Below, piece after piece: positions 309-31,211 of a stretch of DNA of 64,000 nt. Within the stretch, counting starts at the first letter, position 1. Every line of letters begins with the position of its first letter. The position numbers and the translations under genes are program-made. Under the pieces are notes generated by a model. That model saw only the letters and a list, made by a program, of their open reading frames with translations, was not told the origin of the DNA and ran no database searches. This DNA comes from an uncultured virus (IMG/VR IMGVR_UViG_3300031555_004022) (Duplodnaviria > Heunggongvirae > Uroviricota > Caudoviricetes): the IMG/VR virus record IMGVR_UViG_3300031555_004022. One strand, 5' to 3'.

Positions 309-1808
309 TTAATTCGCACGAATCATTATAATCGAAAGCAATCTGGCAAAGTCATACGGCCATAATGTGCTATCGGGATTGTCCTTTGATAATGGTTCCC
401 CTTCAGGATAGAATTCGAATAGTGCAATGATTTCTACCTCGTCTCCCTCTATAATGCTATCGTCAATATACTTTACACTAGATCGAGAGACAATACATGG
501 AATACTTGATCTATTTCTGTACGACACACCAGATAACGCTTGAATATTTAGATTTTTATCATATTCATAATCAAAACTTACATATTCCTCCTCTGAAATA
601 TACCATTCGTACCAATCTTTTGATTCAAATGATTGGGAGGAAATATATGCTGTGAGTTTAACATATATATCATCATACTTTGTGGGATTTTGTCGCAACT
701 CCTGTAAATCGACATTAGGAGCGTTTATATATTCGTCTAAATACTCGACATATGGGTGTTCTTTAAGATAAATGGTGGAGGTATCTTTTGCAGAACCTTT
801 CTCGAGATAGAGCTCTGTTGCCAATTCAGCGGGTATGGCAAGATTCAGATTTTGTCCTTCTGAGTAAGAGGCAAATGTAATACCGATCACATTGCCCTCA
901 TTGTTAAAGAGGGCACCACCACTACTGCCGCTGGAGATTGGTGCAGTGAATTGTAATACATCCATGTTTTCTTCCATAATTCTTCCGCTAAGAACACCGG
1001 TCGACACAGTGTTTTTTATTCCCAAAGGACTTCCAATGGCTACTACTGTTTCTCCTTTCTTAACAGAGGTCGAATTACCCAATACCAGAGGAGTAAGTCC
1101 AGTATCGTTGGAGAGTTGAAGAATAGCAATATCCTGGGCTTCTGAATAACAGATAATTCCAGATACATTGTACGAAATGTCCTGATTTGTGGAAATCTTA
1201 CAGGTGTGCGCTGAAGTCATTACATGGTAGTTAGTTACAACAGTGTTTCCGTTAAAGGCTACAAAACCACTGCCTGTTGCGGACAGTTTGCCTTTATGAT
1301 CGTAGCAGAAGATAGTTACCACGGACGCATCTGCCGCCTCAATTGCATTAGTATCATCTGAGAAAGATATTGGCTGCGTGGGAGCGGTTGTAAGAACAGT
1401 TGCAGAGGCGGTTGTGGGAACAGAAGTAGTTACTGGAGGTTCATTGCTAGTTACTAAACTACTTTTAAGGAATAAGATCAGTATGATCACAATCAGGGCT
1501 AAAACTATAATGGCAAAAATAATCAGAGTTCTAGGTTTGTGCTTAGTTGTAACCGGAATGACAGAGATTTTGGGTGGGTTTTCTGCTGAATTGGATAGTC
1601 TAATTTCGTCTGTTACTCCTTCTAAAAAGGAATCTGGAGAAATCGAAAAAATCTCACACATTTTTACTAGCAATGCGAAAGTGGGAGTAGACTCATCTGC
1701 CTCCCATTCGGCAATGATACCAGTGGAAAGCTCCAATTTGCTGGCAAGCTCTTTTTGCGTAAGATTATGTGATTCCCTCAGTGATAGTATTCTCATACCA
1801 AGGGTCAT
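309..1808 (-). CDS. XRE HTH - transmembrane - trypsin-like serine protease fusion
   Basis: N-terminal HTH (LTQKELASKL), hydrophobic helix (IIFAIIVLALIVIILILF), catalytic motifs TNYHV / DIAIL / GSSGGAL. Confidence 0.85.
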   Translation of the reverse strand: MTLGMRILSLRESHNLTQKELASKLELSTGIIAEWEADESTPTFALLVKMCEIFSISPDSFLEGVTDEIRLSNSAENPPKISVIPVTTKHKPRTLIIFAIIVLALIVIILILFLKSSLVTSNEPPVTTSVPTTASATVLTTAPTQPISFSDDTNAIEAADASVVTIFCYDHKGKLSATGSGFVAFNGNTVVTNYHVMTSAHTCKISTNQDISYNVSGIICYSEAQDIAILQLSNDTGLTPLVLGNSTSVKKGETVVAIGSPLGIKNTVSTGVLSGRIMEENMDVLQFTAPISSGSSGGALFNNEGNVIGITFASYSEGQNLNLAIPAELATELYLEKGSAKDTSTIYLKEHPYVEYLDEYINAPNVDLQELRQNPTKYDDIYVKLTAYISSQSFESKDWYEWYISEEEYVSFDYEYDKNLNIQALSGVSYRNRSSIPCIVSRSSVKYIDDSIIEGDEVEIIALFEFYPEGEPLSKDNPDSTLWPYDFARLLSIIMIRAN

Positions 1809-4585: not shown

Positions 4586-7500
4586 TTAGCAGAACTGCAT
4601 GTTCAGCTGATTTGCCAACATTCCATAGTAAACTGTATCCTTATCTGCGTTTTTGTAAAGAGCATCGCAAATACTGATTTCATCACTGCCGAATAGAGTT
4701 CCGGTTTCACTCAAACAGCGAATGGTTTCAAATCGTCCTGCAGCATTCAACTTGGCAAAAACTTTGCTGATTGCATCCATCAGCTCTTGATTTTGTTTAG
4801 TAGGCGTATTTCTGATAATACGCTCAAATCTACTCTTATCAAAACGCGCATACAGCTTCAAATTACCAAGGAACAAGAAGCAATCCAAATTATACATGTA
4901 GCGATTACTGTTGATTCGCTCTACATTAGTTAATGTGTTACGACCGATTCCTTGTGCGACCTTTTCTGCGATTTCCTTGAGCGAAAGTTTGGAATAGTAC
5001 ATTTCGTCGCTCTTAATTTCAATGAACGGCAAGGTAAAATACTCTCTGATCTCCTCTGTCACTTTCTCGCTATCGCTCTCTTTGTTCGCTTCTGCAAACT
5101 CAAGGAAGTCCAAGAACATTTCCTTGTGATGATAGAGGAACTTCGCATAATACCAGTCCACATAAATCTTGATTACTTCGGTAATGTCTGTTGCTCGTTG
5201 CGTTTTAACGATTTGTTCTCGGTTAGAGCCAAGAGAATCATAGTATTCTGTTGCGCGCTTCTTCATACGGCCCAAGCCACAGTCATTGCCCAGCGTCATC
5301 ATTATTTCGATTTGACCGCTGTTTTCGTCCGTAGAATAGGAATACCAGTCCTTAATGAAGCCTATAACATATAGCATGTATATGTATTTCTTGGCCATGT
5401 CAACAGTTGCGAGAGGGTACTTCCGTGTGTTGATATCGCGACCATTCCGGTTCAAATCGTCGTAGATTTCCATGATTTGCCCGAGCAAGTCTTCTTTGGA
5501 GTCGATGTTGCTGTTGAGCTTTCGATAACAGTCGGAATAATCGTTGCCGATATCATTGAGAAGTCGAGCGATGTCAGGTATCTCAAGTTCGCGTTTTATC
5601 AAAATTGGAGGGACATTTTCCGGAACAGGTTCGAGATAAAACACATAGGAGTTTACAGCTTCATTGGCTCGTCCAGCTCGTCCGATCTCTTGAACAAATT
5701 CATTCTTTGATACGGGCAGACCGAAGTGGATGATGTTTTGAACATTCGGCAAATTGATACCAATGCCAAGTTCTTCACTTGCAACCAATACCTTGCACTT
5801 CTCGTCCGCAAACAAATGATATGCGTATGTGTTTTCTTTTTGGAAAACATCTGCCTCATAGCCAATCGCTTGGGCGACTTGGAATGAGACCTCATCGTTC
5901 TTGGTAAAAACGAGAGTTCGTTCATTTCTTCGGATCTGCTTACCTACGACTTCACACACTCTTTCTATCATCTCATCAAAGCTATGAACCGCTTGGAAAT
6001 GATAAGAAATGTTGTACTTTTCAAATGCAATAGGCGAGAAAATGTTTTGCTGTGGAATTTTCAACTGTTGCTGAATATCCTCAACAACCGTATAGTTTGC
6101 AGTTGCAGTAAAGCCGAGGAAGGTAACTCTATCTAAGAACTTGTTCAAAAACTTCGAGAGCATCAAATACTCCGGGCGGAAATCGTGCCCCCAGTTGGAA
6201 AGGCAGTGAATCTCATCCAATACCACATAGGAGATCGAGGGACCGGGAGCCACCTTGGTTTCATTCAGGATTCGAGACTGCTTATTCATTATGAGATTAT
6301 GTCCGCTATTGATGTACCGACACTTTACCAACAAGTGCCTATTCTGGAATGTGGTAGGGGTGAGGTACATCAAGCTGTTACGCATCTCAAATTTACTGAA
6401 ATCATTATCTGTTGTCAGTTTGAGATGAGATACATTATCCATGTGATGGAACTTTTTTAAGTTTCTAATCTGATCGTCAATCAGAATCTCTGTCGGTGCC
6501 AAAATGAACATGGGCAGAGGTTGCAATAGCGATGCAAAATAGAAAATCAAAGACTTACCGCTGCCGGTAGGCATGATACAAATAGAGTGACCATTTGAGC
6601 CAAGCATGTTTTTCAATGCAATGAACTGACCCTCTTTGAATGTATCAAACGGAGATATCTCGCCAAGTAAATACTCAAGATCTGGAAGCAAATCTGTGTC
6701 GAGCTGGTAGTTGATTTTCTCTCCAAGCCAAAGCTCACGAGCATTACAGGGCACTTTGTTTTCTTCAATGTAAACACCGTTGATCTTCTTATCCAGAGAT
6801 ATCTTGATTGCATTTTTGCCTTGGGGAACTCTTTCAAGAGTATATTTCTTGCTGACCCGCATGAGGCGCAGAAACCGAGCGACATAATCATTGATTATCG
6901 CGATGGCTATGTCCAGTTCTTCGTCCTTACCAGCATAAATTAAATCAAGATTCCGACCAACCATACCATTCTTTATCAGCTGAAGGATAATCATCATCAA
7001 CCGGAACACGCGCTGATAATTTATCTGGAATGTAGTGGATATGGTGTTTAGATAATGGGGATAGTCCTCCGGTGTGATGCAGCTGTTTCTAATCAGATAG
7101 TTGTAGACCAAGGCGAAAACAGTAGGTGCTTCGCTACAATGCTTTTCGCTGATGCCACAAATATAGAAACCGTTGTCCGTGTTACCCACGCCACAAGGGA
7201 TGTATATTTTGCCTTGGATTTTATTCAACTGGACATTTGTGTAATAGTCAACTTGGTCGGACTTATCTGTAAAGTCAATCGCCGTTGGTTCGGAATGATC
7301 GTCATGTGAACTTGGAAGTTCCAAATCTGCCCACGGATCATCCTTGCTGCCAAAGAGCTTTTCCTCTTTCTCTTTATCCAACTGTGCTTGTGCTGCCTGC
7401 GTCTCTCTAATAACAGCGCCATCAACTGCAGCAATCCACTGATCCACAGCCCAAGTTGCCGTATCTTCAAGCATGGAGTGTTGCTTAATCAATTTGTTAA

Positions 7501-7693
7501 TAGCATTGCTACGTTCAAGATTGTTGAGCGGAAAATGCGCTTGGATTAATGTAACGATACCAATATCATATGCACTCATAAGTGCATTGATTTTGGGAAT
7601 GTCGTTATTAAATGCGTCACTCAAAATTGCCTTTGTAGACTGTCTTTCTATGAGAGTGGCAGCATGACCAAGCAATATCTGATTCAGCTTCAT
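4586..7693 (-). CDS. RecQ-like SF2 helicase with long N-terminal extension
   Basis: MPTGSGKS, DEIHC, WGHDFRPEY, TATA and QEIGRAGR motifs. Confidence 0.9.
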   Translation of the reverse strand: MKLNQILLGHAATLIERQSTKAILSDAFNNDIPKINALMSAYDIGIVTLIQAHFPLNNLERSNAINKLIKQHSMLEDTATWAVDQWIAAVDGAVIRETQAAQAQLDKEKEEKLFGSKDDPWADLELPSSHDDHSEPTAIDFTDKSDQVDYYTNVQLNKIQGKIYIPCGVGNTDNGFYICGISEKHCSEAPTVFALVYNYLIRNSCITPEDYPHYLNTISTTFQINYQRVFRLMMIILQLIKNGMVGRNLDLIYAGKDEELDIAIAIINDYVARFLRLMRVSKKYTLERVPQGKNAIKISLDKKINGVYIEENKVPCNARELWLGEKINYQLDTDLLPDLEYLLGEISPFDTFKEGQFIALKNMLGSNGHSICIMPTGSGKSLIFYFASLLQPLPMFILAPTEILIDDQIRNLKKFHHMDNVSHLKLTTDNDFSKFEMRNSLMYLTPTTFQNRHLLVKCRYINSGHNLIMNKQSRILNETKVAPGPSISYVVLDEIHCLSNWGHDFRPEYLMLSKFLNKFLDRVTFLGFTATANYTVVEDIQQQLKIPQQNIFSPIAFEKYNISYHFQAVHSFDEMIERVCEVVGKQIRRNERTLVFTKNDEVSFQVAQAIGYEADVFQKENTYAYHLFADEKCKVLVASEELGIGINLPNVQNIIHFGLPVSKNEFVQEIGRAGRANEAVNSYVFYLEPVPENVPPILIKRELEIPDIARLLNDIGNDYSDCYRKLNSNIDSKEDLLGQIMEIYDDLNRNGRDINTRKYPLATVDMAKKYIYMLYVIGFIKDWYSYSTDENSGQIEIMMTLGNDCGLGRMKKRATEYYDSLGSNREQIVKTQRATDITEVIKIYVDWYYAKFLYHHKEMFLDFLEFAEANKESDSEKVTEEIREYFTLPFIEIKSDEMYYSKLSLKEIAEKVAQGIGRNTLTNVERINSNRYMYNLDCFLFLGNLKLYARFDKSRFERIIRNTPTKQNQELMDAISKVFAKLNAAGRFETIRCLSETGTLFGSDEISICDALYKNADKDTVYYGMLANQLNMQFC

Positions 7694-7817
7694 AGGCTCA
7701 TCTCACTATCCGGATCGTACTCCTGGTATTCAAATCTCTATTTTAGAGGAGTAATTTCCAAATTAATTATTAACATACATCGTTCTCTTGTTGTACCTTT
7801 GATCATAATAATCGCGC

Positions 7818-7849
7818 TGATGGAAACAGCAAATGATCTGTTTCCATCA
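7818..7849. promoter_or_regulatory. Intergenic stem-loop inside the operon
   Basis: TGATGGAAACAG-N8-CTGTTTCCATCA, 12-bp perfect arms. Confidence 0.5.
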
Positions 7850-7870
7850 AAAACGATTGCTTATTGATTC

Positions 7871-9220
7871 TTATTCGCCGACATCAGCGGGATTGGTATG
7901 CTCTTCTGATGAATGTACGCAGTCTTCTGAAAAGCGAATTTCGTCTTCAGAGTATACCCCTGTATGAACAATTTCGTCACTAATTGGGGTGATAGTTTCA
8001 TTCGCACTGAAATCTTTAGTGTCTTCCGACGAGGGTACAATGGACATATCGTCAGCACAAGTTAATTCTGCTTCAAATATGCCTCCATCAGATGCATCTT
8101 CTGCTAAGCTACACTGGTATGCAGCAATAGCGGTTGATAGTGCATTTTCAGCAGCTTCAAGACGTCTAACGGCCTCCTCTTGAACACGGTGAGCGGTATC
8201 AATTGAAAGTTGAGCCTCAGATGCTTTCTTCTCACAAGTTTCTACATTCAATCTGGCTTTGCTCAAAGCGGACAATATGTAGTCTTGTTTTTCTGCTGCA
8301 AGCACCACATCTCGATCAGCCTTTTCGCAAGAAGCCTTTGCATTAGAGTATTCGCACTGGGCCTTCAGAACTTCTATGAAAGGCATAGAAAGGGCTGTAG
8401 ATACAATACCTGCAATAGAAACATCATCACCGCTACCTTTGCGCGAAAGTCCTGGCAGAAATGCTTTAATCTCAGCTTCACCTGTTTCACGACCATACTC
8501 TGCGAAGATTGCGAGAATAGAGCGATAGAGGACATACATTTCCTCCGTGTTGGCATAGGAATCATCTATGCCGTCGGTTCCCATCAGTGTTGCGACAGGA
8601 CATTCCTTTGTAAAATAGTATCGGAATTCTTCTATTGCTTCGGAATCACAGATAGAGGTGGTGATGTTCGCTTGGCAATCCTCATCCCACGGGATTGGCT
8701 CACCCATGGAACCATCCTGTGAAATGCATACACACTTGCCGTCTCCAATCTGCAGGCCGAACCAGTAATTTTTAGTCTGGCAGGCAGCGATCAAGGTAGT
8801 GCCGTAAGCCTTTTCCTGTCTTTGGCCAGACAAATATCTTTTCTTATACTTTTCAGAAACTTTAGACAGTTCTTCTTCCGAAAAAGGATACTTTTCCAAA
8901 TCGGCATCAACAGCCGCATACCAATTAGCCAGGATATTTTTTGCCAGTTGCTCCAAATAGGAATCACTGTCTGCAGAAATATCAATGGCACTTTCTTCTA
9001 CGGTTTTCACGAACTCTCTAACAGCGGTAATCGTAGCTTCGACAGCAAAACTCGATCCTCTATCCGTTCTTGGATAATTGTCGCTCCCATGTCCGTCAGC
9101 AACAACAACGACCGCCATTGAATCGTCGGAATAGCAGCCAGAAGAGTCTTGGCATACCTTGTCCGATTTGATGTGATTGTATCCTTGTTCGGAAAAAGCG
9201 AAATCATATGATGTATTCAT
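7871..9220 (-). CDS. PP2C-family Ser/Thr phosphatase with coiled-coil and acidic tail
   Basis: CQDS, VADGHGS, YGTTL, QIGDG, TDGI and GDDVS motifs. Confidence 0.9.
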   Translation of the reverse strand: MNTSYDFAFSEQGYNHIKSDKVCQDSSGCYSDDSMAVVVVADGHGSDNYPRTDRGSSFAVEATITAVREFVKTVEESAIDISADSDSYLEQLAKNILANWYAAVDADLEKYPFSEEELSKVSEKYKKRYLSGQRQEKAYGTTLIAACQTKNYWFGLQIGDGKCVCISQDGSMGEPIPWDEDCQANITTSICDSEAIEEFRYYFTKECPVATLMGTDGIDDSYANTEEMYVLYRSILAIFAEYGRETGEAEIKAFLPGLSRKGSGDDVSIAGIVSTALSMPFIEVLKAQCEYSNAKASCEKADRDVVLAAEKQDYILSALSKARLNVETCEKKASEAQLSIDTAHRVQEEAVRRLEAAENALSTAIAAYQCSLAEDASDGGIFEAELTCADDMSIVPSSEDTKDFSANETITPISDEIVHTGVYSEDEIRFSEDCVHSSEEHTNPADVGE

Positions 9221-9241
9221 TGCTTTCCTCCGAAATGGGGT

Positions 9242-10003
9242 TTACCAATCTCCCCAGCCGCTATCATCAACCTTGATAGGATTGCCGCTTGAACCAGCCT
9301 CCTGAGAAATTTCTTCCTTAACCTCTTTGACGATATTTGCAGAGTCTTCTTCGGGGGTAGTCTCCACATCAGAAGTCTGCTTGCTGTGGCTTTGGAACTC
9401 GGACGCACGAACACTAACCTTGCGAATGAGAGCCTTCAGCGTGTGCTTATCGTTGACCGCAATAACAGACTCGGGAGTGCCGGTAAAGGTGGCAAGAACA
9501 TTTTTGTCTGCATCTTCACCGATAGCAATAGCGATCTTGATAGCATGCTTGAACCAATTGTTCTTCTTCAGCTGTTCCAGACCCTTTTCCCAATTATCGG
9601 TAGGACCACCATCGCTGAACAGGAGAATGACAGGAGCATATGCACCAGTCTGAGATTCAAGGAACTCTTTTCTGGATAACTTCTTATCCAGCTCGGTGCA
9701 TGCGGCGCCGAGATCGGTCAAACCATTGGCATGAAGATCGTTCCAGATTACATCGCCAATGCCGATAGGTCCGGAAGAAGGGGTGATCCAGGAGCAACCG
9801 CTGGAGAACTGCATGATAGCAACGCGGATCTCAGCATCGTCATTAGCGGTGGAGATGTCGGGCAAGTCCACAGTGATTGCTTCTTCCATAGCGGAGTTTA
9901 CGGAGCCGATCTTGTCGCCGGTCATACTGCCAGAAGTATCAACGACATAGAACAAGGTCATAATTTTACGGGGGGAAGGCGTAACTTGATCTAACAGTGA
10001 CAT
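9242..10003 (-). CDS. terY: TerY-like vWA domain protein
   Basis: MIDAS motif DTSGSM, G.TDLG, LFSDGGPTD. Confidence 0.85.
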   Translation of the reverse strand: MSLLDQVTPSPRKIMTLFYVVDTSGSMTGDKIGSVNSAMEEAITVDLPDISTANDDAEIRVAIMQFSSGCSWITPSSGPIGIGDVIWNDLHANGLTDLGAACTELDKKLSRKEFLESQTGAYAPVILLFSDGGPTDNWEKGLEQLKKNNWFKHAIKIAIAIGEDADKNVLATFTGTPESVIAVNDKHTLKALIRKVSVRASEFQSHSKQTSDVETTPEEDSANIVKEVKEEISQEAGSSGNPIKVDDSGWGDW

Positions 10004-10021
10004 GATTTATACCTCTCTTTT

Positions 10022-11341
10022 TTATATTTTCATCGTTGCTGTAGACTGATTGTTTCCGAAGAAGTCGATAACGAAGCCATCCTTAATTGGAACTACGCTT
10101 CCCGGAGCCAAAGGCTTCTGACTTCCATCAGGCAGGTTAATCTTCCATGTATAAGTGGAAGTGTTGCGGAGACCTAGCACCTGCGGATTCTGGGGGTTAG
10201 CTACGATTTCACCGGCGATAGTTTCAATATCTTCCAAAGTGGAATCGATGTGCCATAAGTAAACTTTCATGCCGTTGTAAACAGGCAACTGATAGTTCTT
10301 AAACAATAGTGCAGCTGGTTTGTTGATCTTTTTTTTGCACTCGAAGCATTCGTTTACGCCCTCTGCAGTATAGAACATTTCATTCTTACAGTAAGGACAC
10401 TTGCCGGTTTCCGCTCTCAAGCGGAAGAACGCATCCAGCCATTCCTTTTCAAGCACGCGAGCCTTCTTTTTGTGCATAACCTCTTGGCTGAAAGCACGAA
10501 CAAAGAGATCGCGAATGTATTGAGGATAGATGTTCCAGAACAGCTTTAAGTTTCTGTCAGTTCCGGGAATCGGTCTATTACGCATATCATTGGGAGCATA
10601 GACGAAAATAGGTTCGCTGCCGTAATACTTCTTTTCGAGTTCCTTAGTCATGCAGGGAGGTGTAGAATACTTACCCTCCAATGGATGATTGATAAACAAC
10701 AGTCGGAACAAGACAACTGCGAGAGAAAATCGGTCGGACTGTTTATCCGGATCAGATTTAAGAGTAACGATCTCCGGAGCCATCCAACGCTGCTTGCCCA
10801 TAATGCCGAGGTTTGTACCATACGGAGATACATTATCGTTGTCGCAGATCAGAACTTTGCCAGTGGTCGGATTGATGAAGAAATTACCGTTGTTGATATC
10901 TTGGTAGCTGTAACCTCTGTTATGCAATTCTCTGAACGCCTGAATAATATTGATCGCAGCAGTAGAGATTGCGTTAAAGGACTTGAAACGAACCTGCTGT
11001 TTCTTCTTAGAACCAACAAAGAAGTTGGTCAGCTCCTCATATCCTGCAGGACGGATCTCCATAATGTAACCAAAGGAGCCATTCTGCACTTCGGTAATAC
11101 CCAGCGGCCACAGAAATGCCTCTGTAGGAGCACCCTTTGCAATGTTGTTTTCAAGGTTTGTGTAAAACTCCTTCTCCTTGCCCTTGAAAGATCCATTATG
11201 ATACCACTTCAAAGCATATTCCTTGCCATTGTAAGAAACCTTATAGACAGTACCTTGACCACCTGCGCCAAACTCTGCCAATATCTTTGTGTCACCGCCA
11301 TTTTTCATTTTGACGGTATCGCCAATTTTCATAACACCCAT
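10022..11341 (-). CDS. Ser/Thr protein kinase with Zn ribbon
   Basis: GAGGQGTVY, ALK, YQDINNGN, CDNDN, WMAPE, DRFSLA; CPYC...CFEC. Confidence 0.9.
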   Translation of the reverse strand: MGVMKIGDTVKMKNGGDTKILAEFGAGGQGTVYKVSYNGKEYALKWYHNGSFKGKEKEFYTNLENNIAKGAPTEAFLWPLGITEVQNGSFGYIMEIRPAGYEELTNFFVGSKKKQQVRFKSFNAISTAAINIIQAFRELHNRGYSYQDINNGNFFINPTTGKVLICDNDNVSPYGTNLGIMGKQRWMAPEIVTLKSDPDKQSDRFSLAVVLFRLLFINHPLEGKYSTPPCMTKELEKKYYGSEPIFVYAPNDMRNRPIPGTDRNLKLFWNIYPQYIRDLFVRAFSQEVMHKKKARVLEKEWLDAFFRLRAETGKCPYCKNEMFYTAEGVNECFECKKKINKPAALLFKNYQLPVYNGMKVYLWHIDSTLEDIETIAGEIVANPQNPQVLGLRNTSTYTWKINLPDGSQKPLAPGSVVPIKDGFVIDFFGNNQSTATMKI

Positions 11342-11383
11342 GTTTTATTTTTCCTCCTATATTAGAACTGTGCTTTCGTATGT

Positions 11384-12652
11384 TTATTGCGGCTTTTCTA
11401 TCAGCTCAAATTTGGCTTTGTGACTTATTGCCCACTTATGTGCATAGGAATCTCTATAGCACTCTATATGGATGTCCGAAAGAATGTTAAAGAAAGTATC
11501 TGCATCTATTTTTGTGACACTTTCTGGAATAGTAATTCGTGTCAACGACCAACAATTTGCAAATGCATCCTCTTTGATTTGAACGACTCCATCTGGTACA
11601 ATAAAGCTACCAAAACCGCAACAATAGAAAACTTCCTGTTCCAAAATCTTTAAGCCTCGTGACAAGGTGACATTGGTCAAATCCGTACAATACGCAAATG
11701 CTCTATATTCGATATGCTTAACGCTATCTGGAATACTAACTCGATTTAACCCTTTGCAATCATAGAAAGCAGAAGCTTCGATAGCTGTTACACCGTCTGG
11801 AAGAGCAATGCTTGCAATAGCTTTGCATCCACTAAAGGCTTCGCTTTGTATGGTGTTGATACCTTCCAAAATTGTCACATTTGAAAGCTGCTTGCAATTT
11901 GAAAAAGCTCCTTTTGAAACAGCCCCTATGCTACCCGGTAAAACAATACTCCGTATACCGCTACCAACAAAAGCATAGTTTCCAATGAACCTAATGCCCT
12001 CTGGAAGCGAAATTCGTGATAGTGCCTTGCAGTTTTTGAATGTGTTTTCGCCAATCGACTCCAATCCCTCCGGCAAGGATACATCTTTTAGTGCTTTGCA
12101 CCCCATAAAGGCATTGCTCTCTATTCTTCTGACCCCTTTAGGTACAACAACAGATTCAACATTTATTCTGTCGGAGCCTTTCGGCTTTGTATCTCCTAAA
12201 GCCGTGCTACCAATACTGATAACTGTTTTGCTGTCAACGCAATCCGGGAAAATGATTTGTGTTGGGAGTTTGCCCTTATATGCGATAAGCTCTACCGTGT
12301 TATTCCCAAGATCAACATATTCCCACTCTGTTGCTTGAGGCACCACATTATTAGGAGGTGGTGCTACTTGAGGGGATAATTGAATACTTGTCGCACTTAC
12401 GCCGAAAGCATCAGCCCAAATCAAAATAGCCTCTTGCGAATACTGTCCTGTAATGCCGTACTCATTCTCAATTTGTGCGATGAGTCCTTGCATCTCATTA
12501 GGAGCTATGCTTGTCTCTGCTTTGATTTTGTTTGCAACACCACATTCAAACAGTATTGTCAGAATGTTTACCACCCTTTTTTCGGAAGGGTATGTATCCA
12601 TAAGAATAGACTTAAACGACGCCCTGCTGTTCAAGCAGTTTGGATGTTGCAT
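11384..12652 (-). CDS. BspA-like leucine-rich repeat (LRR_5) protein; the likely original start at 12676 is interrupted by TAG
   Basis: Repeated LP.G...I...AF..C..L units; N-terminal helical domain; no signal peptide evident. Confidence 0.85.
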   Translation of the reverse strand: MQHPNCLNSRASFKSILMDTYPSEKRVVNILTILFECGVANKIKAETSIAPNEMQGLIAQIENEYGITGQYSQEAILIWADAFGVSATSIQLSPQVAPPPNNVVPQATEWEYVDLGNNTVELIAYKGKLPTQIIFPDCVDSKTVISIGSTALGDTKPKGSDRINVESVVVPKGVRRIESNAFMGCKALKDVSLPEGLESIGENTFKNCKALSRISLPEGIRFIGNYAFVGSGIRSIVLPGSIGAVSKGAFSNCKQLSNVTILEGINTIQSEAFSGCKAIASIALPDGVTAIEASAFYDCKGLNRVSIPDSVKHIEYRAFAYCTDLTNVTLSRGLKILEQEVFYCCGFGSFIVPDGVVQIKEDAFANCWSLTRITIPESVTKIDADTFFNILSDIHIECYRDSYAHKWAISHKAKFELIEKPQ

Positions 12653-12690
12653 CTAAATTGATTTCAAATCAATCATCTGTCATACCCCTA

Positions 12691-13188
12691 TCAGATTAAC
12701 TTCAAAACGATGTGTGGCAGGTTTCCGTCGGGCACAAACAATTTTAAAGTCTCTTTACTGAACCGGAACTCGATGCAGTTTGCATAAGGAGTAACCGCTA
12801 CGAGATCATCCGTCTTGCGGTCGAATCCATCAGCACCACCAACAAAAATGATTCTCTTGGTTGTGATGTAGAGAATACCTATTATGGTCGAGTATTTCAC
12901 ATCGTCTACGTATTCAGAGTTGCCACCACCAACGTGGACGCGTGTCCCTTTGAACAATCCGGGCATACTGTAGCCGGTATTCTTACGAATTCGCTTTTTG
13001 TTTACAGTTCTCTTTTCATAAATGGCACGATCTGCATAATGGCAGGTTTCCCCATTCTTCAAGAACAAATAATTCGGTTCAAGTGTAGGCAACTGCCCTC
13101 GGAGGATTTGCTGTCTTGCTGCGTCTGGCAAAACGCTTGGAACAGTTGGTGTCGTTGATTGTGGTTTCAAGAAATCAAGAAAACCCAT
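12691..13188 (-). CDS. Hypothetical protein (possible PH-like fold), first gene of the operon
   Basis: AGGGG RBS; GILYITTKRIIF motif reminiscent of bacterial PH/GRAM-like domains. Confidence 0.6.
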   Translation of the reverse strand: MGFLDFLKPQSTTPTVPSVLPDAARQQILRGQLPTLEPNYLFLKNGETCHYADRAIYEKRTVNKKRIRKNTGYSMPGLFKGTRVHVGGGNSEYVDDVKYSTIIGILYITTKRIIFVGGADGFDRKTDDLVAVTPYANCIEFRFSKETLKLFVPDGNLPHIVLKLI

Positions 13189-13437: not shown

Positions 13438-13869
13438 TCATAAAGTTAGGCTGATAACGATCTTCTTTAAAGCACCTGATTTTTTCGCGAATTTGGCTGC
13501 TCCACCCCATGAGTGGGAGATGTAGGTAACAACATAGTCGGACTGCCTGAGCATCCAATTGTTTCGCCATGAGATGGCGTAACGGGGATGGACAGTTTCG
13601 ATTCCCTCCGGGAGCATGGTGTCGGAGTAATCTTCGTATTCTTTTAGCTTGCCGGGCATGTAGGCTAGCACTACAGCATAGGTAATCCTTGGGTACTCCT
13701 TTTTGAGTTCTCGCAAAGAATGGCGTACAAGGGAATCGAATTGTCCATGGTTTCCTACATAGAAAGTATCTACATCATGGTTGGTTATGAGGTCAATCAA
13801 TACCTCACGTAATATCGGTTGTATGGTTTGTGGGCAGTCTCTGTGACCGAAAAAAGTACATGCTTTCAT
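13438..13869 (-). CDS. SLOG/YspA-like (DUF1273-like) protein
   Basis: CTFFGHR start, FYVG..G.FD, RN.WM...SDYVV.Y....GGA. Confidence 0.7.
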   Translation of the reverse strand: MKACTFFGHRDCPQTIQPILREVLIDLITNHDVDTFYVGNHGQFDSLVRHSLRELKKEYPRITYAVVLAYMPGKLKEYEDYSDTMLPEGIETVHPRYAISWRNNWMLRQSDYVVTYISHSWGGAAKFAKKSGALKKIVISLTL

Positions 13870-13875
13870 ATTTTC

Positions 13876-13908
13876 ACCCCTTTTGAGTTATTTTAACTCA
13901 AAAGGGGT
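13876..13908. promoter_or_regulatory. Perfect 15-bp inverted repeat (putative operator) between divergent genes
   Basis: ACCCCTTTTGAGTTA-TTT-TAACTCAAAAGGGGT. Confidence 0.7.
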
Positions 13909-13958
13909 AATCTTTTCAAGAGGGAAAAGGTATCATTTTAATAAAAGAGGTGATACCT

Positions 13959-14201
13959 ATGACTGTAGGAGAAGCTGTCCGGCAGAGAATCATTCAACTA
14001 TGTCAGGAACGCAATATTTCTATCAACAAACTGAGTGCCATAAGCGGTGTGACACAATCCACGGTAAATAATATTGTAAGCGGAAGAAACAATAGTGCAA
14101 CAGTTTCTACGATTAAAAAGCTCTGCGACGGATTGGGTATTACCATTGATGAATTCTTCCACAATGAACTGTTTGCCGGACTGGAACAGGAAATTAAATG
14201 A
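13959..14201 (+). CDS. XRE-family HTH regulator
   Basis: SINKLSAISGVTQSTVNNIVSG...TIKKLCDGLGI; GAGGTG RBS. Confidence 0.85.
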   Translation: MTVGEAVRQRIIQLCQERNISINKLSAISGVTQSTVNNIVSGRNNSATVSTIKKLCDGLGITIDEFFHNELFAGLEQEIK

Positions 14202-15889: not shown

Positions 15890-16399
15890 ATGGGCGAAAG
15901 TAAAAGCAAAGGAACCTTCCTGAAGGAGAACAGCAAGGTAGTTGGCTATATGGTTTATCCAAGGTTCTTAATGGGTTTGGAACTGAATGAAACTGCCAAG
16001 CTGATTTATGTCCTGCTGCTAGATCGGGCGAGGCTATCCATAAAACAAGGAGGGTGGGCGGATGAGGAAGGAAATGTTTATATTTACTACGACATCAAGA
16101 GCCTATCTGCCGACAGTGGAAAAAGTGCCGGAACCGTGAAGGCAGCGTTGAAAGAGTTGGAGAAGGCTGACCTAATCTTCCGGGCAAAGCAGGAGGTGGG
16201 AAAGCCACGAAGAATCTATGTAAAGACGAGGTCAGAAAACTGTCCCTCGCCGTGGATAGATTCTTGGCCCCTTGGTGGACAGAAAACTGTCTCTCACGGG
16301 GACAGTTTTTCGACTCCATACAATACAATAGTAAAAACAAATAGAACAAAAACAAATATATCAAGAAATTATTCATATGGGAAAGGAGAGAGTTTATGA
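15890..16399 (+). CDS. Replication initiator A N-terminal (winged HTH) domain protein
   Basis: AKLIYVLLLDRARLS...W.DE.G.VYIYY...LKELE..DLI...G.P.RIYV. Confidence 0.8.
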   Translation: MGESKSKGTFLKENSKVVGYMVYPRFLMGLELNETAKLIYVLLLDRARLSIKQGGWADEEGNVYIYYDIKSLSADSGKSAGTVKAALKELEKADLIFRAKQEVGKPRRIYVKTRSENCPSPWIDSWPLGGQKTVSHGDSFSTPYNTIVKTNRTKTNISRNYSYGKGESL

Positions 16400-17238
16400 T
16401 TCCTGTTTTAGAAGCATTCACTGTGGAGACTGACAATGAGCTCAGAGAAGACGAGTATCGAAATGACATGGGGTTGATCTGTTGTAAAAACTGCCATTCC
16501 CTCCGGCAGATCACATTGACTGTTGGAGATAAGCAGATCAGCCCTCGTGTTTTATGCAGATGTCAAGAAGAGGAGCGAGATCGAATGGAAGCAGAATGGA
16601 AAGCCCGAAGACGGCGAGAGGAGATTGAACGGAATCGCAGTATTGGTCTTACGGATCCTGTAATTGGGAAGCACACCTTTGAGAATGATCTGGGCTACAA
16701 TCCTCTCGCTATGGAGATTGCTCGAAACTATGTGGAGCACTGGGAGGAATTCACGCAGAATTCTCAGGGGCTGCTCCTGTGGGGCGATGTCGGAACCGGG
16801 AAGAGCTTTCTTGCAGGCTGTGTTGGAAACGAGCTGCTGAATAGAGGCGTCCGGGTTCTGATGACTAACTTCTCCCGTCTGTTGAATCGACTGACTGATA
16901 TACAGATGGGAGATCGGAATGGATTTATTGACAGCCTGAACAGCTTTGAATTACTGATCCTTGACGACTTGGGGATTGAGAGAAATTCGGAGTTTGCCAA
17001 GGAACAGATATTCAGCATCATCGACAGTCGCTACCGTAGCGGACTGCCTATGATCGTGACCACAAACCTGACTTTGGACGAACTTCTGAATCCGGCTGAC
17101 TTGTGGCGAAAACGAGTTTACGACAGAGTTTTAGAGCGAAACATTCGGGTCTGTGTGAACGATCATAATATCCGAAAAATACTCTCTGAAAAGGCAATGG
17201 CGCGAGGAAAGGAGGTGTTGACCTATGGTAAGGAATAG
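16396..17238 (+). CDS. DnaC/IstB-like AAA+ ATPase (helicase loader)
   Basis: GDVGTGKS, LLILDDLG, IIDSRY, TTNL. Confidence 0.85.
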   Translation: MIPVLEAFTVETDNELREDEYRNDMGLICCKNCHSLRQITLTVGDKQISPRVLCRCQEEERDRMEAEWKARRRREEIERNRSIGLTDPVIGKHTFENDLGYNPLAMEIARNYVEHWEEFTQNSQGLLLWGDVGTGKSFLAGCVGNELLNRGVRVLMTNFSRLLNRLTDIQMGDRNGFIDSLNSFELLILDDLGIERNSEFAKEQIFSIIDSRYRSGLPMIVTTNLTLDELLNPADLWRKRVYDRVLERNIRVCVNDHNIRKILSEKAMARGKEVLTYGKE

Positions 17239-17254
17239 ACCATGGAGATGTCTT

Positions 17255-17320
17255 AACAAGCACTGGATTTGCTTGTGCAAATCCGCTTGTCCTGGGCTTG
17301 CCGCCCCTGAAACCCCGCAG
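17255..17320. promoter_or_regulatory. Putative oriT
   Basis: GGATTTGC-TTGT-GCAAATCC inverted repeat (17265-17284) then TTGTCCTGG, resembling a MOBP TATCCTG nic motif, just upstream of mobC. Confidence 0.5.
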
Positions 17321-17334
17321 AAAGGAGGACGAAT

Positions 17335-17694
17335 ATGAGAAAGAGAAACCGTCGGGTAGAAATCTATTTTTCGGACGAAGAATATGAGGAATTGATGGAG
17401 AAGGTAACAGCCTCCAAACTCTCAAGAGAGCAGTTTTGCCGCATGGTTTTGAATGGGGCGAAAATCAAGGAAGCACCACCGGCTGAGTTTTATAAACTGA
17501 TCACGGAGATACGAAGAGTAGGGGTACATCTGAATCGCATTCTTTGCAAAGCTGAAGCAGGAGGCATTTTGGATGTGCCGCTGATCCGTGAGAGCATAGA
17601 GGAGCTACATGCTACACAAAAAATGCTTTACGACACATTTCGAAATGAAGTACCGAAAAGAAAGCACAACACAATGAAGGAGGAAACTAAATGA
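17335..17694 (+). CDS. mobC: MobC-like ribbon-helix-helix relaxosome accessory protein
   Basis: RKRNRRVEIYFSDEEY...L..EIRRVGVHLNRI pattern. Confidence 0.7.
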   Translation: MRKRNRRVEIYFSDEEYEELMEKVTASKLSREQFCRMVLNGAKIKEAPPAEFYKLITEIRRVGVHLNRILCKAEAGGILDVPLIRESIEELHATQKMLYDTFRNEVPKRKHNTMKEETK

Positions 17695-18542
17695 ACAAAG
17701 CGAAAGCAGAATATTTATCTGTAGACCAATTAAAGCCCTTTGAGGGGCAACCCTTCCAAGTGAAGGACGACGAAGAAATGGACCGGTTGGTCTGGAGCAT
17801 TATGACCCAAGGACTGCTGACTCCTTTGGCAGTCCGGCCTCTCGGCAGTAACGAATATGAGGTGATCTCCGGGCATCGGAGATTGCATGCATGCAAAAAA
17901 GCAGGGATCGAGACGGTCCCTGCTTTAGTTTATCCTATGAGCCGCGACGAGGCAGCGGTGGCCTTGGTGGACAGTAATTTACACCGGGAGAAGCTGCTAC
18001 CAAGCGAGAAAGCATGGGCTTACAAGCTGAAAATGGAAGCCCTGAAACGGCAAGGTCAACGTGTGGATCTAACTTCGTCCCAAGTTGGGACGAGGTCAGA
18101 CGAGCTACTTGCACAGCAAACGGGAGAGAGCCGAAATCAGGTACAACGCTACATTCGTTTGACCAATCTGATCCCCGGCATTTTAAGAATGGTTGATGAA
18201 GGCAGGATCGCACTGACACCGGCTGTTGAGATATCATATCTTCGGGAGCAGGAACAGGCAGAGCTTCTGGAAACTATGGAGAGCGAGGAATGCACGCCTT
18301 CCCTTGCCCAAGCCATACAGTTGAAGCAACTTAGCCAAAGTGGGGACTTGGGCATAGACAGAATCTTCACCATCATGGGTGAGAAGAAGGGCAACCAGAA
18401 GGAAAAACTCAGTTTTTTCCGCGACGATATCAGTCGCTATTTCCCGTCCCACTTCACCGCCGCAAAAATGCAAACCACCATTATGGAACTACTGAAAAAT
18501 TATCAAAGAACATGGAAAAGGAGAGAACTAAATGACCGATAA
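17691..18542 (+). CDS. ParB/Spo0J-family protein
   Basis: GLLTPLAVRP...YEVISGHRR, VDSNLHRE. Confidence 0.85.
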   Translation: MNKAKAEYLSVDQLKPFEGQPFQVKDDEEMDRLVWSIMTQGLLTPLAVRPLGSNEYEVISGHRRLHACKKAGIETVPALVYPMSRDEAAVALVDSNLHREKLLPSEKAWAYKLKMEALKRQGQRVDLTSSQVGTRSDELLAQQTGESRNQVQRYIRLTNLIPGILRMVDEGRIALTPAVEISYLREQEQAELLETMESEECTPSLAQAIQLKQLSQSGDLGIDRIFTIMGEKKGNQKEKLSFFRDDISRYFPSHFTAAKMQTTIMELLKNYQRTWKRRELNDR

Positions 18543-18813
18543 TCAGAGAATCGATATTTTGAAAATCAAAGAGGCCTCCCAGCGAGCACGGGAGTGTGGC
18601 ATGGCGATCAGCGAATATACCATTCGCCGTGCCATCCGTTCCGGGCAGTTGCCCTGCCGTATCATTGGCCGCACCTATTTGATTAGTTGGAAGAAACTTG
18701 TGGAGTGGGCTACCTGCGCAGATGGCGGAGATATTCCCACTGACCTCGCACATTTGCACCGAGAGCCTTCTGCCGGTAGAATATCTGTAGAAACGACACA
18801 CGAAGGGAGATAA
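18532..18813 (+). CDS. Excisionase-like HTH protein
   Basis: ISEYTIRRAIRSGQLP...IGRTYLI; directly upstream of the integrase. Confidence 0.7.
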   Translation: MTDNQRIDILKIKEASQRARECGMAISEYTIRRAIRSGQLPCRIIGRTYLISWKKLVEWATCADGGDIPTDLAHLHREPSAGRISVETTHEGR

Positions 18814-18819
18814 CATACT

Positions 18820-20211
18820 ATGCCATCGATTGAAGCAAGAAGAAACGCAAGCGGCAAGATCACAAGCTACCGCATCACGGTTTCCGACGGAACGGATTAT
18901 AAGGGCAACCCCATTCGCCACCGCATCTTATGGACACCTCCGAAGAAGGTCATGACAGAGAGGCAGATGGAGAAAGAGGCTTATGCCGCAGCGGCCAAAT
19001 ATGAGGAGCAAATCAAAGTAGGCTACTACATCGACAACAATCAGACTTTCTGCGAATATGCCCAATATGTCATGGAACTGAAGGAGCGAACCGGGATCAA
19101 AACATCCACCTTGGATCGTTATTTGGAGATGCTGCCCCGAATTTATGAAGCCATCGGACATATGAAGTTGAGCCAGATTCGTCCCCAACACTTAAACGAA
19201 TTTTATCGCCACTTGGGACAAATGGGAATGCGTGCGGACAGTCAGCGTGCCGTTCCAAAAAGAATCTTCCCCAAGAGATTCCATGCCTTACAAGTCTCTC
19301 AGGCAGACCTTGCAAGGGTAGCAGGAATAGGCTACCAAACCATTAACACTGCCCTCAAGGGAAACGCCATCAAAATGGATAAGGCAAATGCCATTGCAGA
19401 GGCTATGGGGATGACCTTTTCAACTTTGTTTGATGTGAAGGAAAATTTGAAGCCCTTGTCAGCAAAGACAGTCCGGGAGCACCATCGGTTAATCTCCACG
19501 ATCTTAGCCCAAGCGGAGAAAGAAATGCTGATCCCCTACAATCCCGCACAAAAGGCCACACCGCCGAAGGTCGAGAGAACCGTTCCGGAATATTATCAAC
19601 AGGAGGAAATGGACGAAATTTTAGAAGCTCTGGAAAAGGCGCCGGTTCGTTGGAAAGCCATTTCTTATGTTCTGATCGATACCGGGTGTCGCCGTGGAGA
19701 AGCTTTAGGGCTAAAATGGGACAAAATCGATTTGGAAACAGGCTTGATCGTCATTGACAGATCCCTACTGTATTCCCCATCCAAGGGAATCTATGAAAGT
19801 ACCACGAAAACCAACGATGTCCGCGCAATGATCCTGGCACCGCAAACCATAGACGCTCTGAAGGCATGGAAAGAAGAATATGAGCAGTGGAAAGAAATCA
19901 ACGGCGACCGCTGGAAGAATTCTCCCTATGTCTTCGTCCGGGAAGACGGAGGCCCCATGCACCCGGATAGCGTTACAGATTGGTTGGCGAGATTCAGCAA
20001 GGACAATGTCTTGCCCCACATCCATCCTCACGCATTCCGTCATACCGCAGCTTCTACCATGATTATGAACGGTGTAGATGTGGTAACCGCCGCAGCAGAA
20101 ATGGGCCATGCCAGCCCCTCCACAACTGCCAATATCTATGCCCACCAATTCGCCATTGCAAGAGCCAAAGCTGCCAATGTTCGTGGCGGCGTGTTCGCTA
20201 AGCGGAAGTAA
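18820..20211 (+). CDS. Tyrosine recombinase/integrase with embedded XRE-like HTH
   Basis: TGCRRGE, HAFRHT, MGH and IYAH catalytic motifs; internal SQADLARVAGIGYQTIN segment. Confidence 0.9.
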   Translation: MPSIEARRNASGKITSYRITVSDGTDYKGNPIRHRILWTPPKKVMTERQMEKEAYAAAAKYEEQIKVGYYIDNNQTFCEYAQYVMELKERTGIKTSTLDRYLEMLPRIYEAIGHMKLSQIRPQHLNEFYRHLGQMGMRADSQRAVPKRIFPKRFHALQVSQADLARVAGIGYQTINTALKGNAIKMDKANAIAEAMGMTFSTLFDVKENLKPLSAKTVREHHRLISTILAQAEKEMLIPYNPAQKATPPKVERTVPEYYQQEEMDEILEALEKAPVRWKAISYVLIDTGCRRGEALGLKWDKIDLETGLIVIDRSLLYSPSKGIYESTTKTNDVRAMILAPQTIDALKAWKEEYEQWKEINGDRWKNSPYVFVREDGGPMHPDSVTDWLARFSKDNVLPHIHPHAFRHTAASTMIMNGVDVVTAAAEMGHASPSTTANIYAHQFAIARAKAANVRGGVFAKRK

Positions 20212-20373: not shown

Positions 20374-20754
20374 ATGAAAAAATCCAAAGACGCCACCTAT
20401 ACTTCCAAATTCGACCTGACCTATGTACTTGAGGGAGAATACTACATCCCTTTGGTAGAACTTCCGAAGCCTGCCGATATCGGCATTTGGGGCAAGCGGC
20501 GCCATGACTATTTGAAGAACCACCGCCGAGTCATCTACTATGCTATGCAGATGAAAGAAACCCTAAATCCGCACCTGGAGGAAGTAGATCGCGCTGCGAA
20601 TGAAATGTGCGACCGCCTCATCAAACAATTCGCCACCGCCGAAGGCATCACCGAAGACCTAAAAGCCACCAACCAAATGGAATGGGTCGGCCGCATGAAT
20701 AACATCCATGCCCGTGTTACGGAAATTGTGAATAACGAACTGATTCTGGTATGA
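20374..20754 (+). CDS. tnpV: TnpV family protein (copy 2)
   Basis: IGIWGKRR, EGITEDLKA.NQMEWVGRMNNI motifs. Confidence 0.85.
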   Translation: MKKSKDATYTSKFDLTYVLEGEYYIPLVELPKPADIGIWGKRRHDYLKNHRRVIYYAMQMKETLNPHLEEVDRAANEMCDRLIKQFATAEGITEDLKATNQMEWVGRMNNIHARVTEIVNNELILV

Positions 20755-22338: not shown

Positions 22339-22347
22339 TTTGCGACC

Positions 22348-22369
22348 GATGGGACGTTTTTGCCCCATC
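22348..22369. promoter_or_regulatory. Palindromic operator-like box, copy 2, upstream of the WYL gene
   Basis: GATGGGACGTTTTTGCCCCATC followed by a TAATAT -10-like box. Confidence 0.6.
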
Positions 22370-22419
22370 GGGTGTTGTAATATGGTGTAAAAGATGATAC
22401 CATAAAAAGGGTGATAGAT

Positions 22420-23460: not shown

Positions 23461-23481
23461 CCTCTTTGAAAGGAGTAGGAA

Positions 23482-23823
23482 ATGGCAACTATTTACAATT
23501 ACTATCAACTGTACATTCACACGGCAATAGACATGTTAGAAGGAACAGGGTATCTGAAAGATAGTTTAGATTGGGATGTTAACCGGGGGAAATTTACACT
23601 CCGCCTTCGAAATCGCGACGGTTCTCCCTTGACAGTGCTGGTTATTACATTCAAAAAATCTAAAAGCAGCATCGTTATTGCGGATACTAAGACGCATATG
23701 CAGACCGAATTCCGGATAATCCTTGACACAGACGGGAAGAATCTGGACTATTTCCATAGTTTCCTTGATGGTTTCATATTTGAAATTGCCTATCAAAATG
23801 ACGTAAAAAATAGCAGTACATAG
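23482..23823 (+). CDS. Hypothetical protein
   Basis: AAGGAG RBS; in an operon with the WYL gene. Confidence 0.6.
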   Translation: MATIYNYYQLYIHTAIDMLEGTGYLKDSLDWDVNRGKFTLRLRNRDGSPLTVLVITFKKSKSSIVIADTKTHMQTEFRIILDTDGKNLDYFHSFLDGFIFEIAYQNDVKNSST

Positions 23824-23892
23824 CGATCAAAACGAGATATTGCAAAACCAACCATCTTAAATTATCTGTATATACAAAAGGAGAGTTACATC

Positions 23893-31191: not shown

Positions 31192-31211
31192 ATTTCTTCA
31201 CCTCTTTCTTT

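What the first reader, a model, noticed from the sequence alone, without database searches (positions are those of the whole stretch)
7430..12676. LRR protein and helicase share an N-terminal helical domain of about 85 aa (candidate homotypic adaptor)
Seen by eye: helicase MKLNQILLGHAATLIERQSTKAILSDAFNNDIPKINALMSAYDIGIV...INKLIKQHSMLEDTATWAVDQWIAAV aligns with LRR MIDLKSI*MQHPNCLNSRASFKSILMDTYPSEKRVVNILTILFECGVA...IAQIENEYGITGQYSQEAILIWADAF (pattern L..I...H.....R...K.IL.D........N.L......G......A...W..A). Established: ternary conflict systems couple sensors to effectors through shared small domains (EADs, death-like folds). Inference: a possibly unnamed adaptor domain linking an LRR sensor to a helicase effector.
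Basis: partly seen in the sequence, partly recalled or inferred. Interest (0 to 1): 0.75.

Follow-up and report, generated by a model that had tools for sequence, protein, structure and literature searches.

The report
Unnamed adaptor domain of TerY-P systems
The two genes really do share a small helical domain, and it is an unnamed, widespread tag that bacteria attach to many interchangeable sensor, bait or enzyme proteins encoded beside a kinase/phosphatase defence switch, so it may be the plug through which that switch detects infection.

Summary
Observation confirmed. The LRR protein and the RecQ-like helicase share a ~92-aa six-helix domain (HHalign 95%, E 3e-8, ungapped; matching AlphaFold helices from separate alignments). 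Both genes flank a TerY-P triad (vWA, PP2C, Ser/Thr kinase) plus TerY-C. The domain matches no Pfam, NCBIfam, PADLOC, PHROG or PDB family tested, yet 2,879 50%-identity clusters carry it, fused mostly N-terminally to LRR, DUF6273, RCC1, Sel1, lectin-like folds, FtsZ, FtsK, RNAP alpha-CTD and Clp/Hsl fragments. It tracks this TerY-P subtype: 5 of 5 kinase-positive genomes in a blind 400-genome sample carry it, against 2 of 395 others; two triads elsewhere lack it. The LRR-to-helicase reading is too narrow: most loci have no such helicase, several have one copy only, and the window's two copies lie in separate clades. Best reading: a docking tag that plugs swappable sensors, decoys and effectors into the TerY-P switch, perhaps by a near-invariant Asp binding the vWA metal site (inferred, untested). 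The window's LRR allele has a real stop at codon 8 followed by an ATG.

The parts
12395..12676 (-). Shared helical domain, LRR-type copy; interrupted by TAG at codon 8 (12653-12655), with ATG at 12652 as the likely restart, so the product lacks most of helix 1; conserved Asp codon at 12596-12598
11384..12676 (-). Domain + BspA-type LRR (PF13306) protein, 422 aa from the second ATG; variable cassette (domain median 76% identical to 75 homologues, remainder median 32% in 73)
7418..7693 (-). Shared helical domain, helicase-type copy (intact; conserved Asp26 at 7616-7618)
4586..7693 (-). Domain + unknown region + RecQ-like SF2 helicase (TGSGKS, DEIH, TATA, QEIGRAGR present) + unknown helical C-terminus, 1035 aa
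10022..11341 (-). TerY-P Ser/Thr kinase, 439 aa, with a CxxC...CxxC zinc-ribbon pattern after the kinase domain
   Evidence: zinc ribbon read from the sequence
9242..10003 (-). TerY-like vWA protein, 253 aa, MIDAS DxSxS intact (DTSGS)
7871..9220 (-). PP2C-like phosphatase (PF13672) with coiled-coil/acidic tail, 449 aa
3501..4568 (-). Coiled-coil protein with C-terminal hydrophobic segment, 355 aa; conserved downstream of the helicase in L001 and L002
3144..3488 (-). TerY-C metal-binding domain protein (PF15616), 114 aa
12691..13188 (-). 165-aa protein of no known family, first gene of the unit; homologues lead the unit in G002, G003 and G392 and a distant one lies in the Prevotella locus

Best explanation
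The domain is a docking tag that plugs interchangeable cargo proteins into a TerY-P phosphorylation switch. Shown: a small six-helix fold, kept under constraint while the protein behind it is swapped; fused to binding scaffolds (LRR, RCC1, Sel1, FGE/Lcl lectin-like folds, DUF6273), to pieces of host machines (ClpA N-domain, ClpX zinc finger, HslU fragment, FtsZ, FtsK, RNAP alpha-CTD, Lon-C) and here to a RecQ-like helicase; encoded next to kinase-vWA-PP2C triads in three phyla; one acidic residue is almost invariant. Inferred: the cargo is a sensor or decoy for invader proteins (the LRR) or an effector (the helicase); the tag brings it to the triad, and a change in cargo state tips the kinase/phosphatase balance and triggers a defence response. 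Most speculative step (about 0.35): the conserved Asp completes the Mg2+ site (MIDAS) of the free TerY vWA, as acidic ligands do in other vWA domains (established knowledge, recalled). In this window LRR and helicase would be coupled through the triad rather than to each other, and the LRR arm may be weakened by the codon-8 stop.
For: Co-occurrence, blind: in 400 Bacillota genomes the TerY-P-type kinase was in 5 and all 5 carry the domain, against 2 of 395 others (Fisher p 2.5e-10; 1.4e-8 with two related genomes counted once); one of those 2 has TerY-C between its two copies on a 3.3-kb contig. Domain genes share a contig with the triad in 12 of 17 triad loci examined; 2 more are split at contig ends, 1 contig is too short, 2 have none. 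A plasmid search with the domain returned 1 of 72,556 plasmids, and it is one of the 2 that carry the kinase: there five 91-98% identical copies follow the triad, fused to Sel1, an HslU piece, Tim44-like, Clp_N and zf-C4_ClpX. Cargo variety in 111 representatives: LRR_5 56, DUF6273 11, RCC1 4, FtsZ 2, RNAP alpha-CTD 2, Lcl_C 2, FtsK, S1, Lon_C, SBP, Ltp, LRR_4 1 each, none 32 (a few carry two). 141 of 148 copies are terminal. Asp27 is D in 96% and acidic in 99% of 73 non-redundant rows, above every hydrophobic position, and invariant in 21 of 21 diverse copies. Among 256 domain-bearing proteins 10 are fused to a TerY-like vWA, none to the kinase, PP2C or TerY-C; all 9 of those fused vWAs that include the motif have lost DxSxS, while the free vWA keeps it in 15 of 16 loci scanned by pattern.
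Against: No binding or defence activity has been measured. Two triads (G063, G085) have no detectable copy in their loci or genomes, so the domain is not obligatory; G038 and G325 carry it with no such kinase or vWA found, in G038 on a DHHW/AlgX membrane protein in an unrelated operon. The remote copies in G262, G281 and G342 were found by looking beside the kinase and then added to the profile; the Prevotella copies are only weakly supported (HHalign 73%, E 3e-5). The Asp could be purely structural (end of helix 2); its exposure could not be checked. The vWA fusions fall into few lineages and could be simple capture of a neighbouring gene. FtsK cargo keeps Walker A and the helicase keeps its motifs, so not all cargo is a dead decoy. 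The 256 proteins are the closest hits, biased to Bacillota.
Confidence: 0.55

Rival explanations
1. EAD-style homotypic adaptor: copies on different proteins bind each other, here joining the LRR sensor to the helicase effector, or polymerise into a signalling platform that the triad merely regulates.
For: All-helical, about 90 aa, terminal, several copies per operon (G002 5, G281 4, Methylomonas plasmid 5, G520 3); copies are locus-specific in G520 and G424 (supported clades) and in the plasmid (91-98%); five proteins carry two copies. Fits the EAD principle as described in PMC7159879 section 30.
Against: No copy on kinase, PP2C, TerY-C or the free vWA; five triad genomes with one copy found; the window's copies are 22% identical and in separate clades; the helicase is in 3 of 12 same-contig loci.
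Confidence: 0.25
2. The domain is the kinase/phosphatase's substrate or docking site: it is phosphorylated (or bound by the kinase's C-terminal part or by TerY-C), which switches the fused cargo on or off.
For: Same tight linkage to the triad; one enzyme pair serving many cargoes needs a shared handle (inference).
Against: No Ser/Thr column above 48% in 73 non-redundant rows; fusions are to vWA, never to kinase or PP2C, in 256 proteins.
Confidence: 0.12
3. Not a protein-protein adaptor: a nucleic-acid-binding or folding/stability module that spread by local duplication inside TerY-P islands.
For: Weak structural matches include homeodomain, winged-helix and integrase N-terminal domains at Z about 4-5; tandem near-identical copies show duplication is easy.
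Against: Those Z-scores are at background for helical domains; the domain stays 60-90% conserved while the cargo is swapped; it occurs on membrane and solute-binding proteins as well.
Confidence: 0.08

Closest known systems
TerY-P triad (Anantharaman et al. 2012; stand-alone anti-phage form in Gao et al. 2020; both known here only as cited in PMC11090510 and PMC4978471)
   Same: TerY-like vWA, PP2C phosphatase and Ser/Thr kinase with a C-terminal zinc ribbon in one operon, with TerY-C and a DNA-processing enzyme (helicase) alongside.
   Different: Accompanied by one to five genes that carry a shared unnamed domain on hypervariable cargo; the passages read name no such domain. The PADLOC models give only a weak TerY hit (E 0.0076) and no TerY-P kinase or phosphatase hit, so this is not the PADLOC-modelled subtype.
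Effector-associated domains EAD1-11 and bDLD1-3 (Kaur et al. 2020 PMC7159879; 2021 PMC8195603)
   Same: Small, non-enzymatic, helical, terminal, multi-copy, fused to diverse and often co-opted host domains (FtsK, FtsZ, FGS are named there too); decoy roles proposed there.
   Different: Linked to a kinase-vWA-PP2C core, not to MoxR-vWA ternary or GAP1 GTPase systems; no copy on a core component; no Pfam match; window copies are not locus-specific paralogues.
RecQ-family SF2 helicases
   Same: Helicase core with Walker A, DExH, motif III and VI; best NCBIfam match TIGR00614.
   Different: 162.5 bits against a cut-off of 219.8; N-terminal adaptor plus about 250 aa of unknown sequence, and an unmatched C-terminus in place of RQC/HRDC.
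Integrated-decoy receptors of plant immunity (recalled; analogy only)
   Same: Pieces of pathogen-targeted host proteins grafted onto a constant signalling handle, read out through kinases.
   Different: No NLR/STAND ATPase; no homology claimed; function untested.

Membership tests
TerY-P triad | TerY-like vWA with MIDAS motif | tested here: met
   Pfam VWA E 1.5e-8, PADLOC TerY E 0.0076, DTSGS in the sequence
TerY-P triad | PP2C-like phosphatase in the same operon | tested here: met
   PF13672 E 9.2e-35
TerY-P triad | Ser/Thr kinase fused to a C-terminal zinc ribbon | tested here: met
   Pkinase E 4.1e-15; CPYC...CFEC read from the translation
TerY-P stand-alone defence system (kinase-OB fold type, PADLOC) | Match to the PADLOC TerY-P kinase and phosphatase models | tested here: not met
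   No such hit at E 0.01 for kinase or phosphatase; only the weak TerY hit
TerY-P triad | Anti-phage or stress-switch activity | not testable with these tools
   Needs bench assay
EAD (Kaur 2020) | Small, non-enzymatic, alpha-helical | tested here: met
   94 aa, six helices, pLDDT 96.5; one conserved Asp, no catalytic set seen
EAD (Kaur 2020) | N- or C-terminal position; further copies on diverse effector or signalling domains in the same operon | tested here: met
   137 N, 4 C, 7 internal of 148 copies; 2-5 copies per locus in window, G002, G003, G281, G392, G424, G520 and both plasmids
EAD (Kaur 2020) | [quoted passage not shown] | tested here: not met
   0 kinase, 0 PP2C, 0 TerY-C fusions in 256 proteins; core genes lack it in the 22 loci scanned; vWA fusions are extra copies with a broken motif, except the distant P0260
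EAD (Kaur 2020) | Adjacent copies closer to each other than to copies from other genomes | tested here: not met
   Not so for the window, G002, G003 (21-26% within locus, 80-88% across; separate supported clades); it does hold for G520, G424 and the Methylomonas plasmid
EAD (Kaur 2020) | Sequence match to a named EAD or bDLD family | tested here: inconclusive
   No EAD/bDLD hit in Pfam scans at E up to 1-5; that Pfam holds most EAD models is recalled; the paper's own alignment file was too large to read
EAD (Kaur 2020) | Homotypic interaction | not testable with these tools
   Needs a binding assay
Death-like superfamily | Six-helix death fold | tested here: inconclusive
   Six helices predicted; structure searches gave no match above background for either model
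RecQ family | SF2 motifs I, II, III, VI | tested here: met
   TGSGKS, LDEIH, TATA, QEIGRAGR
RecQ family | Curated family score and RQC/HRDC domains | tested here: not met
   TIGR00614 162.5 bits below 219.8; no Pfam or PDB sequence match for the C-terminal 346-358 aa

The most novel reading that the evidence does not exclude
A modular guard-and-decoy immune platform in bacteria: a TerY-P kinase/phosphatase switch watches a swappable library of baits copied from phage-targeted host machines (ClpA, ClpX, HslU, Lon, FtsZ, FtsK, RNAP alpha) and of binding scaffolds (LRR, RCC1, Sel1, lectin folds), each plugged in by one universal tag whose invariant Asp docks on the vWA metal site like an integrin ligand; the helicase is one pluggable effector.
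Probability: 0.3. Interest if true: 0.9.

Novelty: new variant of a known kind. Interest (0 to 1): 0.72.

Why it matters
How TerY-P triads sense anything, and what the TerY vWA binds, is described only as hypothesis in the papers read. A conserved tag on variable cargo gives a candidate ligand, a one-residue test and, in the Methylomonas plasmid, a compact natural system with five cargoes on one tag. The domain also names the N-terminus of thousands of 'hypothetical', LRR, RCC1 and FGE-like proteins and flags them as likely immune components; its cargo list is a readout of which host machines invaders attack.

Tried and rejected
BLASTP of the two N-termini: no alignment (too insensitive). Complex prediction of the L002 helicase-type and LRR-type domains: no answer, score 0.02 against a mark of 0.32, controls not folded; no evidence either way. 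The vWA-domain pair could not be modelled (job spent). Fold searches: Foldseek PDB and viral, nothing at E 0.001; VIA-align best Z 6.9 (HAT1 C-terminal helices, rmsd 3.7, 62 aligned) and 6.1 (rmsd 4.2, 61 aligned), background level; no death-fold or TerB chain among the 50 rows listed. Profile against PDB sequences: nothing below E 0.26. Pfam, NCBIfam, PADLOC, PHROGs: no family for the domain; a TerB hit at E 0.1 in 1 of 10 members was set aside as noise. ESM Atlas: nearest clusters were unnamed hypothetical proteins, leads only. Viral contigs: no relative. Plasmid search with full-length P0199: none at 1e-6. Conserved phospho-site: rejected, no Ser/Thr column above 48%. TAG as assembly error or recoding: rejected; three runs of three studies carry it unchanged, a fourth has a sense codon, the operon's other genes end in TAA/TGA, no tRNA in the window. 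Promoter/terminator scan at chance level. The window's own genome is not held. Ten paper searches and motif searches of two papers' supplements found no description of this domain; Anantharaman 2012, Gao 2020 and the Kaur 2020 Figure 1 source data were not seen and could hold one.
Full report
1. Observation. Their likeness is beyond chance: Smith-Waterman 68 against 0 of 2000 shuffles; HHalign of 75 LRR-type against 33 helicase-type domains 95.1%, E 3.3e-8, 90 ungapped columns. AlphaFold2 gives six helices in the same register for both types from separate alignments (models of the L002 homologues).

2. The stop codon is real. Contigs from three runs of three studies match the window letter for letter across it (one or more may be the window's source); a fourth run, 99% alike, has a Leu codon at position 8 and an Ile codon at position 9 (depth 4.3). 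All 75 homologues have a hydrophobic residue at position 8 (Leu 68, Met 5, Phe 2) and none has Met at 9. So this allele has both a stop and a new ATG beside it; translation probably restarts at codon 9 and drops most of helix 1 (inference).

3. Context. The unit lies in a 40-47% GC stretch with RepA_N, IstB-like ATPase, ParB, integrase and TnpV genes, next to a 60% GC prophage: a mobile element of a gut clostridium (closest records: an uncultured Clostridia MAG and an Oscillospiraceae MAG; holders are animal gut or faeces runs). vWA + PP2C + kinase with zinc ribbon is the TerY-P triad as described in PMC11090510 (passages) and PMC4978471 (passages).

4. The domain is a large unnamed family. 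A 10-sequence profile found 2,879 proteins at E 0.001 and 867 at 1e-10 among 1.84 billion 50%-identity representatives. No Pfam, NCBIfam, PADLOC or PHROG family covers it. Of the 143 new proteins among the top 150, the 111 of 200 aa or more were scanned: LRR_5 56, DUF6273 11, RCC1 4, FtsZ/tubulin 2, RNAP alpha-CTD 2, Lcl_C 2, and one each of FtsK, S1, Lon_C, SBP_bac_3, Ltp and LRR_4; 32 had no family. 137 of 148 copies are N-terminal, 4 C-terminal, 7 internal; 5 proteins have two. In the LRR lineage the domain keeps a median 76% identity while the rest keeps 32%; relatives of the window keep kinase and vWA at 92-97% but swap the LRR. I recall this domain at the N-terminus of many cyanobacterial and spirochaete repeat proteins; that is memory, supported only by an Atlas lead.

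5. It tracks TerY-P, not the helicase. Blind test: in 400 genomes of the phylum (centre genome left out; the two searches show the same handles and are taken as one sample) the domain was in 7 and the kinase subtype in 5, all 5 among the 7 (p 2.5e-10; G534 and G635 are related; p 1.4e-8 counted once). Second sample, order level: kinase in 6 of 400; the domain lies beside the triad in 4 (G392, G262, G281, G342) and was not found in G063 and G085. Three of the 4 are remote copies found by inspection (HHalign 97.5%, E 6e-12 against the earlier profile) and then added to the profile; that profile found no further genome among 368 beyond its five members. G038 and G325 have the domain with no kinase or vWA of this type found. 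Of 72,556 plasmids two carry the kinase: in Methylomonas CP157007.1 five 91-98% identical copies follow the triad on Sel1, an HslU piece (E 0.0014), Tim44-like, Clp_N and ClpX zinc finger; in Prevotella NZ_CP091789.1 three remote, weakly supported copies sit on an unknown protein, an FGE-like protein and FtsK. In all, 12 of 17 triad loci have a domain gene on the same contig, 2 are split at contig ends (G468, G534), 1 contig is too short, 2 have none. The domain-bearing RecQ-like helicase is in 3 of the 12 (window, G002, G003) and in G468.

6. Mechanism. Shown: fold, conservation, cargo variety, linkage. One residue stands out: Asp27 is D in 96% of 73 non-redundant rows, above Trp87 and Leu25 (92%), and no Ser/Thr is conserved; it is invariant in 21 of 21 diverse copies. 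The domain is fused to TerY-like vWAs (10 of 256 proteins, in both orders) but not to kinase, PP2C or TerY-C; the fused vWAs have lost DxSxS (9 of 9 with the motif; the distant P0260 keeps it), the free ones keep it (15 of 16 loci by pattern, the SWIM-vWA of G392 not matched). Inferred: the domain is a tag that brings sensors, decoys and effectors to the triad; the simplest chemistry is Asp completing the vWA metal site. The two FtsZ cargoes carry GGKTGT where the signature as I recall it is GGGTG(T/S)G, which suggests dead baits, but FtsK and the helicase keep their ATPase motifs. Rivals: homotypic EAD-like coupling (0.25), kinase substrate or docking site (0.12), non-adaptor module (0.08).

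7. Comparison. It works like an EAD (PMC7159879: outline, section 30 and passages; PMC8195603: passages, supplement list, file 7 whole, one part of file 2): small, helical, terminal, multi-copy, on co-opted host domains. It fails two defining features here: no copy on a core component, and the window's copies are not each other's closest kin (22% identical; clades 97/96 and 99/98), though copies in G520, G424 and the Methylomonas plasmid are. It is therefore not filed as an EAD. The core is a TerY-P triad, but not the PADLOC-modelled form. Section 10 of PMC11090510 describes duplicated, partly degenerate TerY vWAs flanking variable cassettes and leaves their role open; it names no such tag.

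8. Novelty. Ten paper searches and four look-ups of this scan's notes found no description. Not seen: Anantharaman 2012, Gao 2020, and the Kaur 2020 Figure 1 source data (too large); any of them could hold a name for the domain. Verdict: real feature; new variant of known kinds (TerY-P core, EAD-like grammar) with an unnamed domain and a testable docking model. Interest 0.72.

Noticed in passing
window 12650-12655: Stop codon at codon 8 paired with a new ATG at codon 9 of the LRR gene; a 99%-alike allele in another run has Leu and Ile there. A natural truncation of helix 1 of the domain.
   Followed up: yes
window 29118-37116 (minus strand): Prophage carries a reverse transcriptase (PHROG 1423) behind a 1959-aa gene, with a 125-nt repeat pair, 90% identical, at 30624-30748 and 31263-31387: the layout of a diversity-generating retroelement acting on the 3' end of the large gene. 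Adenine bias not checked.
   Followed up: partly
window 25000-64000: 60% GC prophage (terminase, portal, capsid, tape measure, endolysin) abutting the low-GC element.
   Followed up: partly
window 15890-20211 and 2029-2400, 20374-20754: RepA_N, IstB-like ATPase, ParB, integrase module; TnpV at 2029-2400 and a similar-looking ORF at 20374-20754.
   Followed up: no
window 309-1808; 13438-14201; 21568-24651: HTH-membrane-trypsin fusion; YpsA/SLOG-like gene and HTH upstream of the unit; Spo0A-like regulator, WYL regulator and a 252-aa unknown on the other side.
   Followed up: no
window 12691-13188: 165-aa protein of no family that leads the unit in four Bacillota loci and has a distant homologue in the Prevotella locus; may be a further core part.
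   Followed up: partly
L061:14992-22418 (CP157007.1): Triad followed by five near-identical domain copies on Sel1, HslU piece, Tim44-like, ClpA N-domain and ClpX zinc finger; record unannotated.
   Followed up: yes
L015:8053-9105, L055:12691-13626, L057:12125-13075, L059:931-1881, L060:13408-14433: A 310-350-aa gene follows the PP2C in several clostridial triads (transglutaminase-like by Pfam in L015 only; the others look similar at the N-terminus), including the two that lack the domain; YwqG/DUF1963-like genes often precede the kinase.
   Followed up: no
L016:8229-10472 (G038): Domain fused to a DHHW/AlgX-type membrane protein in an O-acetylation operon, with no triad found.
   Followed up: partly
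L001:14569-14850: Frameshifted remnant of a further domain copy between PP2C and helicase in G002.
   Followed up: no
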